A stretch of 64,000 nt of DNA from the human T2T-CHM13v2.0 reference genome, Homo sapiens. The stretch lies in the NCBI RefSeq assembly GCF_009914755.1, contig NC_060925.1, one strand, 5' to 3'. The position numbers and the translations under genes are program-made. Positions 22,807-59,900 of this stretch are shown here, one piece after another (the stretch's first letter is position 1; the number at the start of each line of letters is the position of its first letter). The notes under the pieces were generated by a model, which was not told the origin of the DNA, made no database searches, and was given only the letters and a program-made list of their open reading frames with translations.

Positions 22807-22888
22807 GTAGTATTGGGCCAGGTGAAAATCCAAGCTTCTCAAGTTGGTTCTGCAATTTACAGTCACTCAGACACTTCACATCCACCAT
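22807..22888 (-). CDS. LEMD1: LEMD1 first coding exon (whole exon 22807-22926), MVDVKCLSDCKLQNQLEKLGFSPGPIL(P); N-terminal half of the LEM domain
   Basis: Peptide visible in ORF 22742..22939(-). Acceptor tttcaag|GATTC at 22926, ATG at 22888, donor C|gtatgt at 22806; 82 coding nt, phase 1. Matches the LEMD1 protein as I recall it. Confidence 0.96.
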
Positions 22889-24341
22889 GATGATAGAAGT
22901 TTGGCCTCTTTTCTGATGGTAGAATCCTTGAAATAACAAAACATTAAATTCATTAAGACAGCCTTACCAATAAGTACTAAAATGTTACCAATCCACATAA
23001 GTGTTTATAATCCTATCTCCCCAACCTCCTAGGTGCACAGGCAATAAAGCAAAAATCAACACTTTCTAGTTCTGCCATAAATCCCTGCTGGGATTAGTTG
23101 CCTCCAATGTAAAACTTTGGATGGGTGTCATTTTCCCCAGTGTCTTTAGGGCTCAATTAGTTACAACTGTTCTGTTCAATGAATATGAGAAAAATCTTCT
23201 GGACAAAATAAACAGATATTTCCATTACTGCTCAGGAACTCTGAGCAAAACTCAAGCTCTGAGAAGATAAGAAGTTAATTAAATATGAAAGAGCTGAGAG
23301 GTATTTTTTTTTTTTTTAGTGAGTTAAATAAAAGTTATTTATCCCTGCCCTCCTTTTGATGACAGGACAGAGAGTACAGAGCATTCAGTTATTGCAAACA
23401 GTAGCAGCTTTCACACTTGTAATTTAACTCTGAACGTTAACAAGATGGTAGTTTTTAATTAACCACCAACAGACTTAGTAATTGCTGAATTGGCATTTGA
23501 AAAAAAGTCAGCTATTCATTCTCTGGCACACAAATTGATTCATATAGATTTATGTAAATCTTGATATGGCTTTCCAAATCTGCACAACCTCAAATTCAAT
23601 CAGTTTTATCCACTTGATCCCTTGATCTCCCAAAGTTGACCCTTCTACCTACATAACAAAATCCGCAAAAAGACAGACCCATTTGTCAAACCTTTTAAAG
23701 GAGATTTTTAAATTTTGGAGTTTATTGTACCACATTTCTATCATGTTTCAAGGCTTTTTAATACTGCAGTGGAAACAACAGCCAGATAATTATTCAGCAT
23801 AGGAGGATCTAGACCAATTTTAAATAATGACTTTGCTTTTGTTGGTGATCAATCAATGTCCAATTAGGAAGAACACTGTATACAAGCTAGAAAAAGTCAT
23901 GAATTGTTATATATAATAGGGTTGTTCTGGAATACCTAGTTTGACAGTTCTCTACTTTAAAGCCATGCTTTAAAGAGAGTTACATTCTAGTACACATAGT
24001 AGGTACCTAGTAAATGTTAGTTTCCTCCTTTTCTATGTGTTTGGGAAACTGACTTAACACTTTGAGGCCAGTGGGAAAAAAACTAATGCTAGGAAGAAAA
24101 AGGACAATGCATCTCAGCACCTCAGATTTTTTTTCTTTCTTTTTTACTGGAAGCTTGCTTCGGCAGATCCTATGACATTTGTTCCTGAGAACAGCTGTCT
24201 GTTGTTTCACCAGCTTCCCAAAAATAACCTCCAATAGAGCCCTCAACAATTTCAAGTGGCACTAGACAATTGCCTAGAGGGAACACACATATGGAAGAAA
24301 AATATTCAAATGGAATCCAACTGGATGATTAATTCACTTAC

Positions 24342-24435
24342 CCCTTCACATGGTTATCTAAAGTCTATGCAATCGAGTTGGTTACTAAAGCTGGGTGAGT
24401 TTCACTCTGAGGTTTCCACTAGCAACCAGTCCCTT
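24342..24435 (-). other. LEMD1: LEMD1 proximal non-coding first exon (5' end approximate)
   Basis: Strong donor GGG|gtaagt (24341-24336) 1.4 kb upstream of the ATG exon, with promoter motifs immediately upstream. Confidence 0.75.
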
Positions 24436-24501
24436 TTTGCCTGTTAGATATTATGGTAATCATAATACTGACAGTGTGACATCAGTAACCCCCATAGCAA
24501 C
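24412..24501. promoter_or_regulatory. Candidate germ-cell-type LEMD1 promoter: two RFX X-box-like sites and a CRE-like site
   Basis: GTTTCCACTAGCAAC 24412-24426, TGACATCA 24477-24484, GTAACCCCCATAGCAAC 24485-24501; CpG-poor context. Confidence 0.55.
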
Positions 24502-56862: not shown

Positions 56863-56908
56863 GTGTGAGTGTGTGTGTGTGTGTGTGTGTGTGAGAGAGA
56901 GAGAGAGA
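56863..56908 (+). repeat. (TG)n(GA)n compound microsatellite
   Basis: Direct reading. Confidence 0.9.
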
Positions 56909-57999
56909 TCCTCTTTTCCTGCCTCTGTGGCAGCCCCAGTGGAGCAATGGAAAGCCGGCATTGAATGACTGAGAGATAGAAGTTGTTTGCAGCCCCAGGC
57001 CTCCGTTGTGTCCTCCTGGAGGGCATAAGCCACCAAAATTACCCCTAAAGGGGGTTTCTTAGAGGACAATCCCTTTCCCCTCAATTCAGAGCTCTTTCAC
57101 CAGGGGTTCCCATCCCAGCCTCAAAAGAGCTGACTTTTCCTCCAAAGTTAGCCCTTCTTAAGGCTCAAGTTGAGAAAAGTTGTTCACTGGCAGATTAAGG
57201 TATGTAAAAAAAAAAAAATCGTCAGGAAAGATTAAATCAGACCAAAAGAAGAATTTGTTAATGAGGGTTGAGGAAAGGAAGGCAGTATACAAGCACTTCC
57301 AAACGGAGGCTGTGGAATGTTGGTCGGAAGGGAGGGCTCTCCCTTGGGCCCCCAGACGCCCTCTCCTGACCAGCTCAGCACTGGCAGGGCTGGCCAGCTC
57401 TTGTTCCCCGGGGGCACCCTGTTATGGACCCTTTCTCAGGAAAGGGAGCACCTATCCTTGTCTAGCTGCCTTCCTGGGCCCCTACCCGGCCAGAGCTCCT
57501 CCTCCAGGTGGGCTCCTAGCTCCGGCCTTTCTTAGGCATGCAAGGGCCCCAGGGATGGGGAGGCAGTGGGAGGCAGGCTTATGGCCAAGAGGTCTGGCCA
57601 GACCTAGACCCCACAGACACAATGGCTAGGAAGGACTCTGATGTGTGTGGGGAGTAGCTGGTGTCTCCTCTAAGCCTGGGACCATGTTTGCCTCCACATA
57701 TACTGGAGTTGGTGGTTTGGCCCACGGACATGGCTTCTCCCAGGCCCCAAACTGGGGTCTCCTGGGGCCCTCTGTTCCAAGGGTACCAGACAAACATATG
57801 CACAGGTGTCACAAACCCCTGATCCCTAACCCCTTTACAGCCCCTTCCTCATACCACTCCATACCATGGGGTATAAAGGAAACGGAGGAGGCACTCCAAG
57901 CGGGTTTCACTCAGCGGGGACAGGAGGATCGGCTACCTCCGGAGCCAAGGCTCCCTCTCACACTCCCCCCAATCCCACCAGCGGCAAAATCCTTTAAAA

Positions 58000-59900
58000 G
58001 GAACAAAGGCAATGGGGGCGGGGAGGGGGCTTCCTCTTTGGTCGACCTAGGGCGGCGGCTGACGCAGCCCGCCGCCGGTCAGCTTTCAGGTGAGTGCCTG
58101 AACCCGCATCCCGCCCATGCCTTAGGGACCCCTCTTCGCCCAGCCAAGCCCGGGGCGGGGAGGAAAGTCCCCCTCAGCCGCACTCGGGCCCCCAACCCGG
58201 CCAAGGGGTCGCCAACTCGCGGCACTTTCTGCCTGTTTGTTTTCGCTCAGTACTCACAGTTTAGATGCTAAGCCGGCTCCTCTTGCACTCACTTCCTTTG
58301 TGTCTCTCTCTCTCTTTCTCTCTCTCTCCCCCTCACCAATCTCTTTCTTCCCTCCTTGTCCGATTCTCTGCTGTAGCTTCCAGTGGAGAAAAATAATTAT
58401 TCTTCAATGGGTTAGCACGGGGCGCACGCACACACGCGCGCGCACACACACCCCGCCGAGGTACCCAATCAATGCACAAATCTTCGGGGTCCCTTTAACC
58501 TCTGCGGATGACTCCGGGAGTTAATTATGAAGCCTATTTCGGCGCGGCATAAATATGCATTAAGGTAGGAAATAATCGATACGCTGAACTTCTGGGAACT
58601 GGCATTTAGACGGACTCCGTCTCGCCGCCCCCCACTCCCTCCATGGCCCCACGAGCCACCTCCACAGCCTCGCGCCTTCCCGGGGTCGCAACGCCTATCA
58701 CAAGCTTCTACCCGGGTTTCAGGGGGCCCCTGTAGTGGCGTGGGCGCCGCGCCGGTGCCGGGAGACCCCCTCGTGCGCCCTCTGCGGTCGGGGCAGACCC
58801 TCAGCCGGAGCTTCTTCCTCCCCCACCCCTGCAGGCCGGGCCCAAGCTGCGACACCCCCAGCACGGGCTCAGCCTGTGAACAAACTCCGAGCTCAGTACT
58901 CGGAGGAACTGGCGAGAGCGGGACGGCTACCTGCCCGCACGCCCGATTTCCGGGCACAGCTAGAAAGACCGGGACGCGATTCAACTCCCAATCCGGTGAA
59001 TCCGCCTAGCGCCTTCGGGTCCTGCCGCCCCCGGCCAGTCCCGACCCGCACACATATGCAGGCATTTGCACACACGCGCGCACACACATGCACGCACATG
59101 CACACACACATATGCACACCCTCGCGCACACAGACACTCCCGCGCGCGCTCACGCCCGCACACACTCAGGGTTATAACAAAGGAAGAGGGGCCAGCGCTG
59201 CCTTACTTTTGTCTCTCTTCTCTCTTTTGCAGCCCCCCAGCCCCGGGGCCGGCGTGCCCGGCCCACCCCGCCCTCCGCGCCCCCCGACGGCCGCGGTCAG
59301 CCGGCATTCCGGAGCAGCGCGTCGGAGCTGCAACTTCGCGCCTAAGCGCCCGCACCTCGCAGCCCGGCGGGCGGGAGACAAAAGCTGCGGCGCCGCCGCC
59401 GGAGGCCGCGCGGCCAAGGTGTGTTCGCTAATTGTCAGGAAATGTGTGTGTGTGCGGCCGGGAGCCCGCAGGGGCGGGGGAGGGGACGGAGGAAGAGGAG
59501 ACCCACCCCTCCTACCCCCGCCACTCGCCAGCGCCGGGTACCCGAACCGGGATTAGAGAATAAATTATCTGCTCTCTTCTCATTGGGCTGTGGCTGAGGA
59601 CGCCGTCGGCGGCGCCGGGCTGGGAGCTCTCCCGGCTCTTTGCATTCACCGCACAGCTCCGGCTCGCCTCGCTTCGTGGAGGCCGAGAGCCCGGGGCCTC
59701 GGCTCCAGACATCAGGGGACACCAGCCGGCTGGCCGCGCCGCCCCGCCCCTCCCCTCCCCCGCCACCCGGCTTGGCCTCAGCCCCCTCCCCTCCCAATTC
59801 TGGCTTGGGTCTTGGGGACGAAGATACTAGGGGAAAAGGCCTAGAGGCCGAAGATCCCAGTATCTTTCCTCCTCTCCCGCCACGCCCCCTTCCCAAGGAG
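58000..59900. promoter_or_regulatory. CpG island, probably a bidirectional promoter (BLACAT1 on -, divergent lncRNA on +)
   Basis: Dense CpG, GC boxes, splice donors on both strands. Confidence 0.85.
58258..58430 (-). other. Candidate most-distal BLACAT1 first exon (two tandem donors)
   Basis: Donors GAA|gtgagt (58292-58287) and ACT|gtgagt (58257-58252) at the CpG island edge; the exon contains no ATG. Confidence 0.55.

What the first reader, a model, noticed from the sequence alone, without database searches (positions are those of the whole stretch)
22807..58430. One minus-strand unit, three products: miR-135b, BLACAT1 micropeptide and LEMD1
Seen: donors at 58292/58257, 52624 and 52208 all lie upstream of the miRNA hairpin. 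Two competing acceptors follow: 43400 (terminal exon with poly(A)) and 22926 (LEMD1). A separate proximal exon at 24342 bypasses both the miRNA and the peptide. Known: miR-135b is described as intronic to LEMD1/BLACAT1, and all three are reported up-regulated in carcinomas. Inference: promoter choice plus terminal-exon choice sets the product mix, so single-gene knockdowns at this locus may be confounded.
Basis: partly seen in the sequence, partly recalled or inferred. Interest (0 to 1): 0.75.

Follow-up and report, generated by a model that had tools for sequence, protein, structure and literature searches.

The report
miR-135b host locus: LEMD1 and BLACAT1
This is the annotated human LEMD1/BLACAT1/MIR135B locus, where several promoters and two alternative transcript ends on one strand yield a microRNA, a short-ORF RNA and a LEM-domain protein; the layout is real but already known.

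Summary
Two of the four upstream donors (58257, 52208) are RefSeq exon ends. The other two (58292, 52624) have no RefSeq row, and by sequence they are no better than dozens of other GT sites.

The hairpin is a full-length mir-135 match (84.1 bits). It lies in the first intron of transcripts that start at 58386 (P1) or 52295/52283 (P2).

These give BLACAT1 without the miRNA.

Three published "miR-135b promoter" fragments map onto P2 (two studies) and, probably, P1 (one study).

The 33-codon ORF is the first AUG of P1, P2 and P4 mRNAs. It is otherwise one of 55 similar ORFs, and I found no paper on the peptide.

Terminal-exon choice can divide BLACAT1 from LEMD1 but cannot affect the miRNA. One study found LEMD1 unchanged when factors that drive miR-135b were silenced in colorectal cells. 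BLACAT1 knock-down was reported not to change LEMD1.

Verdict: a real, annotated architecture that is largely in print. The regulatory model is plausible but only partly supported. Low novelty.

The parts
57901..59850 (.). CpG island covering the P1 start (58386, minus) and the LEMD1-DT start (58399, plus): a bidirectional promoter
   Evidence: GC 0.65, CpG o/e 0.85 over 1950 nt. It is the largest of the three CpG-rich patches of 300 nt or more in the window. The starts come from the hub table.
58258..58386 (-). P1 first exon (BLACAT1 selected transcript), donor ACT|GTGAGT. A second donor-like GAA|GTGAGT lies at 58292 inside it (no RefSeq row).
   Evidence: No ATG in the exon.
52619..52624 (-).
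   Evidence: Matrix rank 84 of 2021. One of four minus-strand GTGAGT within 52292-52624.
52209..52295 (-). P2 first exon, listed under both BLACAT1 (to 52295) and LEMD1 (to 52283), with the shared donor CAG|GTGAGC
   Evidence: Hub table. Donor rank 4 of 2021. CpG-poor (o/e 0.25). Lies inside the reporter fragments of Valeri 2014 and Li 2014.
50643..50739 (-). MIR135B hairpin, in the first intron of P1 and P2 transcripts
   Evidence: Rfam RF00246 at 84.1 bits (gathering 59.2), E 2.7e-17, model 1-88 of 88. MFE -46.7 kcal/mol, z -5.6, 0 of 200 shuffles as stable. Arms match the printed miR-135b-5p/-3p.
47375..48556 (-). P3: alternative BLACAT1 first exon downstream of the hairpin, donor AAG|GTGAAT
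   Evidence: No AG upstream. Donor rank 14 of 2021; 9 ATG in the exon.
43729..43804 (-). P4: alternative BLACAT1 first exon downstream of the hairpin, donor CAG|GTATAT; overlaps the RefSeq enhancer row 43720-43839
   Evidence: No AG upstream. No ATG. Hub table.
37223..43400 (-). BLACAT1 terminal exon: a strong acceptor with a pure pyrimidine tract, ending at a canonical poly(A) site
   Evidence: Only 43 of 3190 AG sites reach its acceptor score, against 402 of 3190 for acceptor 22926.
43263..43364 (-). 33-codon ORF (RefSeq coding part of BLACAT1)
   Evidence: It is the first AUG of P1-, P2- and P4-derived spliced leaders (0 uATG), with G at -3. No Pfam family at E up to 10.
37237..37242 (-). 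AATAAA poly(A) signal, with TGTA just upstream and GT/T-rich sequence downstream
24342..24408 (-). P5: proximal LEMD1 first exon (RefSeq-selected transcript); bypasses the hairpin and the BLACAT1 exon; carries an ATG-TGA start-stop at 24351-24346
   Evidence: CpG o/e 0.15.
22807..22926 (-). LEMD1 exon 2: weak acceptor, start codon at 22888, first 25 positions of the LEM domain
   Evidence: Pfam PF03020 at 34.4 bits (cut-off 24), E 1.6e-8, profile 1-25 of 40.
18585..21704 (-). Next two LEMD1 coding exons (21582-21704 and 18585-18649)
   Evidence: AG acceptors and GT donors. The three coding parts in the window give 270 nt, 90 codons and no stop.

Best explanation
This is a nested, multi-promoter transcription complex on the minus strand.

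Transcripts that start at P1 (58386, CpG-island promoter shared divergently with LEMD1-DT) or at P2 (52295/52283) carry the miR-135b hairpin in their first intron. The Microprocessor can crop the hairpin from the nascent RNA whatever happens further downstream.

The same transcripts then meet the strong acceptor at 43400. Using it gives the 6.2-kb terminal exon that ends at the AATAAA site, that is BLACAT1 RNA, whose first AUG opens the 33-codon ORF. If that exon and its poly(A) site are skipped, transcription runs on for another 20 kb and the donor joins the weaker LEMD1 acceptor at 22926, giving LEMD1 mRNA.

P3 (48556) and P4 (43804) give BLACAT1 without the miRNA. P5 (24408) gives LEMD1 alone.

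So miRNA output depends on P1 plus P2 activity. The BLACAT1:LEMD1 ratio among distal transcripts depends on last-exon choice. Most LEMD1 can be uncoupled from both through P5.

Shown here: the sites, the hairpin family, the intronic position, the shared P2 donor, the LEM domain, and the first-AUG status of the ORF.

Inferred: co-transcriptional cropping, competition between the two ends, my prediction that 43400 is the default fate (it is transcribed first and has the better acceptor), and translation of the ORF.
For: - Coordinates and splice motifs.
- mir-135 match at 84.1 bits on the minus strand; stable hairpin, z -5.6; arms equal to the printed miR-135b sequences.
- The LEM-domain exon is on the same strand.
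- The hairpin lies 1469 nt after donor 52208 and 7243 nt before acceptor 43400.
- Donor 52208 ends exons listed under both genes (hub table). Of the listed BLACAT1 exons only 43400 has an acceptor.
- Acceptor quality: 43 of 3190 AG sites reach the score of 43400, against 402 of 3190 for 22926.
- Reporter activity for 'the miR-135b promoter': about 2.5 kb upstream of the hairpin (Valeri 2014) is 50740-53239. The most active fragment, -2000 to -1500 (Li 2014), is 52239-52739. Both contain P2.
- An H3K4me3/STAT3 region 6278-8027 bp from the hairpin (Zhao 2021) is 57017-58766 if upstream. That contains P1 and a TTCTGGGAA site at 58590.
- TCGA colon adenocarcinoma log fold changes: LEMD1 5.37, BLACAT1 5.15, miR-135b-5p 6.45.
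- In mouse, miR-135b is in the first intron of Lemd1, and both are high in vestibular epithelium.
- Reviews report co-induction of LEMD1 and miR-135b through STAT3 in lymphoma. The primary paper is not held.
- One review sentence places miR-135b inside both BLACAT1 and LEMD1.
Against: - Valeri 2014: RT-PCR covering all LEMD1 isoforms showed no change on TCF4/LEF1 silencing. [quoted passage not shown]
- He 2013, as reviewed: BLACAT1 knock-down did not change LEMD1.
- No RefSeq LEMD1 transcript starts at P1 (hub table).
- P3, P4 and P5 show that BLACAT1 and LEMD1 each have private promoters, so 'one unit' is only part of the truth.
- The exon chains of the non-selected transcripts were not visible to me. 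Joining of P2 to 22926 is inferred from which exons have acceptors.
- The direction of Zhao's region is not stated unambiguously, and that paper misstates the strand.
- I saw no isoform counts, CAGE or long-read data, so the relative use of the routes is unknown.
- The ORF is one of 55 ATG-ORFs of 25 aa or more across the terminal exon (30 on the minus strand, 22 of these 33 aa or longer). It has no family.
Confidence: 0.7

Rival explanations
1. These are overlapping but functionally separate genes. LEMD1 comes essentially from P5. BLACAT1 comes from its own starts. miR-135b comes from a promoter that merely happens to be annotated as a rare alternative first exon. Joint up-regulation in carcinomas then reflects a shared chromatin domain, shared enhancers or 1q32 copy gain, not shared transcripts.
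For: - LEMD1 was unchanged when miR-135b-driving factors were silenced.
- BLACAT1 knock-down had no effect on LEMD1.
- The RefSeq-selected LEMD1 transcript starts at P5 (hub table).
- Knock-down of a distant HERV enhancer was reported to lower BLACAT1 and LEMD1 along with the six other neighbouring genes tested (8 in all).
- Several RefSeq enhancer rows lie inside the BLACAT1 terminal exon (hub table).
Against: - The P2 exon and its donor are listed under both genes (hub table).
- The hairpin needs some transcript through it, and the only annotated starts upstream are P1 and P2. These are exactly where reporter and ChIP studies put the miRNA promoter.
Confidence: 0.25
2. There are two products, not three. 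The 33-codon ORF is not a functional peptide. BLACAT1 RNA is the spliced by-product of pri-miR-135b and/or a nuclear lncRNA. This can hold alongside the best explanation, because it concerns the peptide only.
For: - It is one of 55 comparable ORFs in the span; 22 of the 30 minus-strand ORFs are at least as long.
- No Pfam family.
- BLACAT1 is described as preferentially nuclear and non-coding.
- Four searches found no paper whose title or listed abstract opening describes a BLACAT1 peptide.
Against: - RefSeq files BLACAT1 as protein-coding with this CDS (hub table).
- The ORF is the first AUG, with a purine at -3, in three of the four annotated BLACAT1 transcript types.
Confidence: 0.4
3. miR-135b is driven mainly by an unannotated promoter close to the hairpin, inside the intron and independent of P1 and P2.
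For: Valeri 2014 speaks of the miR-135b promoter as separate from LEMD1. A TTCAGAGAA site lies at 51656, between P2 and the hairpin.
Against: In Li 2014 the highest reporter activity was in -2000 to -1500, the fragment that holds P2, not in the fragments nearer the hairpin. No RefSeq start lies between 52208 and 50739 (hub table).
Confidence: 0.1

Closest known systems
Intronic miRNA in a host gene with alternative promoters (textbook class; EGFL7/miR-126 recalled as an example, not checked here)
   Same: The hairpin is on the host's strand, inside the first intron of annotated transcripts. Host and miRNA are co-expressed in some settings and uncoupled in others.
   Different: Here two differently named genes share the host promoter and donor. 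The host's selected mRNA starts downstream of the miRNA, so the 'host gene' mRNA usually measured need not report on the miRNA.
Alternative last exon / intronic polyadenylation isoforms
   Same: An acceptor plus poly(A) site (43400 to 37223) sits inside the long intron of the longer gene and is reached from the same donor (52208).
   Different: The short isoform is catalogued as a separate gene (BLACAT1) with further private first exons (P3, P4). Competition between the two ends has not been measured.
miRNA host lncRNAs that also carry a translated short ORF (MIR155HG with miR-155 and the P155 micropeptide; recalled, not checked here)
   Same: One non-canonical transcript offers both a miRNA precursor and a short ORF.
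   Different: Here the miRNA is intronic and the ORF is in the terminal exon. I found no published evidence for the peptide in the searches run.
mir-135 family (Rfam RF00246)
   Same: Full-length match above the gathering score.
   Different: None; this is MIR135B itself.

Membership tests
mir-135 precursor family (RF00246) | Covariance-model score at or above the curated gathering score over the whole model | tested here: met
   84.1 bits against 59.2, model 1-88 of 88, minus strand 50738-50652
mir-135 precursor family (RF00246) | Stable hairpin with the mature arms in the stem | tested here: met
   -46.7 kcal/mol, z -5.6, 0 of 200 shuffles as stable. The arms at 50724-50702 and 50685-50664 equal the printed miR-135b-5p/-3p.
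Intronic miRNA of a host transcript | Same strand as the host and inside an intron bounded by annotated splice sites | tested here: met
   The hairpin lies between donor 52208 (or 58257) and acceptors 43400/22926. The LEM-domain exon reads on the minus strand.
Intronic miRNA of a host transcript | miRNA level follows host promoter activity | tested here: inconclusive
   Literature only. For. Against, for LEMD1 mRNA. I saw no promoter-specific transcript data.
Alternative last exon / intronic polyadenylation | A 5' exon and donor shared with the longer gene | tested here: met
   The exon ending at 52209 is listed under both LEMD1 and BLACAT1 (hub table). The donor was verified.
Alternative last exon / intronic polyadenylation | Acceptor plus poly(A) signal inside an intron of the longer gene | tested here: met
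   Acceptor 43400, AATAAA 37242-37237, 3' end 37223
Alternative last exon / intronic polyadenylation | Measured trade-off between the two ends | not testable with these tools
   Needs isoform-resolved RNA data or mutation of the site.
LEM-domain protein (PF03020) | Match to the LEM domain profile above the curated cut-off | tested here: met
   34.4 bits against 24, E 1.6e-8, residues 3-27 against profile 1-25 of 40. Only the first coding exon was scanned, so the match is partial.
Translated short ORF (micropeptide) | An ATG-to-stop ORF that is the first AUG of the mRNA in a usable context | tested here: met
   43364-43263. There are 0 upstream ATG in P1, P2 and P4 leaders and 9 in the P3 leader. 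Context gggcATGc has G at -3.
Translated short ORF (micropeptide) | Evidence of translation or of purifying selection | not testable with these tools
   No ribosome-profiling, proteomic or vertebrate comparative data were at hand. RefSeq's coding call is the only support. No paper was found.
Bidirectional CpG-island promoter | Two divergent starts within a CpG island | tested here: met
   Starts at 58386 (-) and 58399 (+) from the hub table. Island 57901-59850, GC 0.65, o/e 0.85.

The most novel reading that the evidence does not exclude
The default product pair of the two upstream promoters may be miR-135b plus BLACAT1 RNA, with LEMD1 reached from them only by skipping a strong, earlier-transcribed terminal exon. 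If so, BLACAT1 RNA is chiefly the spliced remnant of pri-miR-135b. The three separately published 'miR-135b promoters' would then be the BLACAT1/LEMD1 first-exon promoters. Much of the BLACAT1 expression-phenotype correlation in carcinomas would be shared with, or due to, the oncogenic miRNA made from the same primary transcript.
Probability: 0.4. Interest if true: 0.4.

Novelty: already known. Interest (0 to 1): 0.25.

Why it matters
LEMD1, BLACAT1 and miR-135b are each studied as separate cancer markers or drivers. Among the 18 papers that name BLACAT1, LEMD1 and 'transcript', and the 81 that name at least two of miR-135b, LEMD1 and BLACAT1, I found only one sentence saying that the miRNA lies inside both genes (I opened only some of these papers).

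If P1 and P2 feed all three products, three things follow. Promoter-level perturbation (CRISPRi, methylation, deletions) of any one 'gene' changes the others. Expression correlations are not independent. The miRNA-promoter literature is really about BLACAT1/LEMD1 promoters.

This is a useful caution for work on this locus, but it adds no new kind of biology.

Tried and rejected
- **Motif strength as proof of splice sites.** Rejected. GTRAGT is at chance level (49 against 47.6), and the best-scoring donor-like sites are unannotated. The donor matrix used recalled, approximate frequencies.
- **Locating Li 2014's HSF1 site by consensus.** There were 0 matches to GAANNTTC or TTCNNGAA in 52239-52739, so the site could not be placed.
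- **TCF/LEF motif WWCAAAG.** It has 4 matches in 50740-53240. This is too common a motif to identify Valeri's site.
- **Pfam on the 33-aa peptide.** Nothing at E up to 10.
- **Literature on a BLACAT1 peptide.**
  - 'micropeptide': 12 papers, none with either term in title or abstract, none opened.
  - 'ORF': 26 papers, 25 listed, passages of 4 opened, nothing relevant.
  - 'microprotein': 1 paper, not opened.
  - 'peptide' plus 'translated': 27 papers, 20 listed, none opened.
  - One search was badly specified. It returned 3,876 papers, and none of the 25 listed held BLACAT1, so it tells nothing.
- **pri-miR-135b search.** 5 papers, 3 opened. PMC11941479 showed 0 occurrences on reading.
- **Papers not held.** Matsuyama 2011 (PubMed 22042699) and PMC3804830 are not held. 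They are known here only through others' citations.
- **Not attempted.**
  - Conservation of the ORF, of P1-P5 or of the terminal exon in other mammals, because no vertebrate collection is at hand.
  - Structure prediction of a 33-residue peptide, judged uninformative.
  - The supplements of Valeri 2014 (Figures S2G/H) and Li 2014 (Figure S9). They may bear on which LEMD1 isoforms and which promoter sites were tested.

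
Full report
**What is there**

The window is human chr1q32.1 (hub table).
- Donor-like GAA|GTGAGT (G at 58292) and ACT|GTGAGT (G at 58257).
- Donor-like GAC|GTGAGT (52624) and CAG|GTGAGC (52208).
- An acceptor with a long, uninterrupted pyrimidine tract opening an exon at 43400. The exon is followed by ATG at 43364 and a 33-codon ORF that ends at 43263.
- The acceptor ttatttcaag|G opening the exon at 22926, with ATG at 22888.
- A first exon 24408-24342 with donor GGG|GTAAGT.
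- AATAAA at 37242-37237, 14 nt before the RefSeq 3' end. It has TGTA just upstream and GT/T-rich sequence downstream.

The hairpin at 50643-50739 is a full-length match to Rfam mir-135: 84.1 bits against a gathering score of 59.2, E 2.7e-17, minus strand. It folds at -46.7 kcal/mol, z -5.6, and 0 of 200 shuffles fold as well. Its arms equal the printed miR-135b-5p and -3p.

The exon at 22888-22807 matches the LEM domain (PF03020, 34.4 bits against a cut-off of 24, profile 1-25 of 40). The three LEMD1 coding parts in the window make 90 open codons.

**Is it more than chance?**

Not from the motifs alone.
- GTRAGT occurs 49 times in the window against 47.6 +/- 5.9 in shuffles.
- I ranked donors with a rough matrix whose frequencies I recalled rather than took from a tool. 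Among 2021 minus-strand GT in 18000-59000 the ranks are: 52208 #4, 24341 #7, 58292 #29, 52624 #84, 58257 #106. The three best-scoring sites (48710, 34925, 28375) are not annotated exon ends.
- So 58257 and 52208 are validated by coinciding with RefSeq exon ends. 58292 and 52624 have no RefSeq row and remain candidates.
- One point in their favour: four minus-strand GTGAGT motifs cluster within 52292-52624 and two within 58252-58292, next to the two annotated starts.

Two BLACAT1 exons in the hub table, 47375-48556 and 43729-43804, are not preceded by AG and end in GT donors. They are therefore first exons. Both lie downstream of the hairpin, so they give BLACAT1 without miR-135b.

The locus therefore has at least five annotated minus-strand starts:

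| Start | Position | Note |
|---|---|---|
| P1 | 58386 | Only CpG-island start |
| P2 | 52295/52283 | Shared by BLACAT1 and LEMD1 rows |
| P3 | 48556 | Downstream of the hairpin |
| P4 | 43804 | Downstream of the hairpin |
| P5 | 24408 | RefSeq-selected LEMD1 transcript |

P1 is the only one in a CpG island (57901-59850, GC 0.65, o/e 0.85). The LEMD1-DT start at 58399 lies in the same island on the other strand, so this is a bidirectional promoter. P2 to P5 are CpG-poor, with o/e 0.15-0.25.

**Evidence that the products share transcripts**

- The exon ending at 52209 is listed under both BLACAT1 (52209-52295) and LEMD1 (52209-52283), so one donor serves both.
- Among the listed BLACAT1 exons only 43400 has an acceptor, and the 24408 LEMD1 exon has none.
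- The P2 exon must therefore join 43400 in BLACAT1 transcripts, and 22926 or a later LEMD1 acceptor in LEMD1 transcripts. This is an inference, because I could not see the exon chains of the non-selected transcripts.
- No RefSeq LEMD1 transcript starts at P1.

**Link to the literature**

Three studies cloned or mapped "the miR-135b promoter". Measured from the hairpin's 5' end at 50739:
- Valeri 2014 (PMC3995091, passages) used about 2.5 kb upstream. That is 50740-53239.
- Li 2014 (PMC4385861, section 9) found the highest reporter activity, and HSF1 binding, in -2000 to -1500. That is 52239-52739. Both fragments contain P2.
- Zhao 2021 (PMC8121828, section 12) used an H3K4me3 and STAT3 region 6278-8027 bp "ahead of" the stem-loop. 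If upstream, that is 57017-58766, which contains P1 and the CpG island.

The direction of Zhao's region is my inference. Their discussion says "upstream". A TTCTGGGAA site lies at 58590, and no TTCNNNGAA lies in the mirror-image interval 42616-44365. The base rate is one such site per 2783 nt, so this is weak support.

None of the passages I saw connects these promoters with BLACAT1.

Zhao 2021 also states that miR-135b is transcribed in the reverse direction to LEMD1. The Rfam match and the LEM-domain reading frame are both on the minus strand, so that statement is wrong.

Other published observations:
- In mouse, miR-135b lies in the first intron of Lemd1, and both are high in vestibular epithelium (PMC3071727, passage).
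- Reviews report joint STAT3-driven induction in lymphoma. The primary paper is not held.
- In TCGA colon adenocarcinoma the log fold changes are LEMD1 5.37, BLACAT1 5.15 and miR-135b-5p 6.45 (PMC7392656, tables).
- One review sentence says that miR-135b lies within both BLACAT1 and LEMD1 (PMC8876324).

**Evidence against a tight unit**

- Valeri 2014 found no change in LEMD1, using primers for all isoforms, when TCF4/LEF1 were silenced. [quoted passage not shown]
- He 2013, as reviewed in PMC7445530, found that BLACAT1 knock-down did not change LEMD1.

Both fit a model in which most LEMD1 mRNA comes from P5 and RNAi acts on the mature RNA. They equally fit independent genes.

**Mechanism I think most likely (confidence 0.7)**

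- P1 and P2 transcripts carry the hairpin 1469 nt or 7518 nt after their donors. The hairpin can be cropped co-transcriptionally whatever the downstream fate, so terminal-exon choice cannot alter miRNA output.
- The acceptor at 43400 is transcribed about 20 kb before 22926 and is much the better site. Only 43 of 3190 AG sites reach its score, against 402 of 3190 for 22926.
- I therefore predict that BLACAT1 is the default fate of distal transcripts, and that LEMD1 is reached from them only by skipping that exon and its poly(A) site.
- The ORF is the first AUG in P1-, P2- and P4-derived leaders (0 upstream ATG) but not in the P3 leader (9 upstream ATG). It has G at -3. Scanning ribosomes would therefore reach it.
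- By itself, though, the ORF is one of 55 ATG-ORFs of 25 aa or more over the terminal exon. Thirty of these are on the minus strand, and 22 of those are at least 33 aa. It has no Pfam family.
- Its status as a product rests on RefSeq. Four searches found no paper on it (most hits were judged from listings only).

**Comparison with what is known**

This is an intronic miRNA in a multi-promoter host, combined with an alternative last exon that happens to carry a gene name of its own and a short ORF. Each element is a textbook class, and the locus is annotated as such; the gene's name is 'BLACAT1 overlapping LEMD1 locus'. The examples I name for comparison (EGFL7/miR-126, MIR155HG/P155) are recalled and were not checked here.

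**Verdict**

The architecture is already known.

The value added here has three parts. The map now has five promoters. Terminal-exon choice does not touch the miRNA. The published miR-135b promoters coincide with the BLACAT1/LEMD1 first exons.

Confounding is a fair warning for promoter-level perturbation and for expression correlations. It is less so for RNAi.

Noticed in passing
window 24346-24351 (minus): An ATG-TGA 'start-stop' mini-uORF with A at -3 (ataaccATGtga) lies in the first exon of the RefSeq-selected LEMD1 mRNA, 42 nt of mRNA before the main ATG. Leaders from P1 or P2 joined to 22926 have no upstream ATG. The promoter isoforms may therefore differ in translation.
   Followed up: partly
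window 43388-43393 (minus): A strong donor-like CTG|GTGAGT (rank 6 of 2021) lies only 7 nt inside the BLACAT1 terminal exon, upstream of the ORF. If it were used, it would leave a 7-nt exon and remove the ORF. Its role, if any, is unknown.
   Followed up: no
window 32851-33350: A 500-nt CpG-rich patch (GC 0.61, o/e 0.79) lies in the long LEMD1 intron. It overlaps the RefSeq 'silencer' rows 33021-33070 and 33291-33340.
   Followed up: no
window 52324-52533: A RefSeq 'silencer' row sits 29-238 nt upstream of the P2 start. It lies inside the fragment that Li 2014 found most active as a promoter (hub table).
   Followed up: no
window 50643-50739, plus strand: A published CRISPRa experiment on a FANTOM5 antisense transcript across miR-135b raised pri- and mature miR-135b more than two-fold (PMC7263187, passages). 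That antisense transcript is not in the hub's RefSeq table.
   Followed up: no
literature, not the window: PMC8121828 says miR-135b is transcribed opposite to LEMD1, which the strands seen here contradict. PMC3995091 says the miRNA overlaps exon 1 of LEMD1, which no RefSeq row in the hub table shows. PMC7445530 describes BLACAT1 as a single exon lying between LEMD1 and CDK18, unlike the current annotation.
   Followed up: partly
window 50630-50663 (minus): CNNC motifs lie at offsets 18, 21, 24 and 27 after the 3p arm. This fits the downstream Microprocessor motif as I recall it; the motif rule comes from no call.
   Followed up: no
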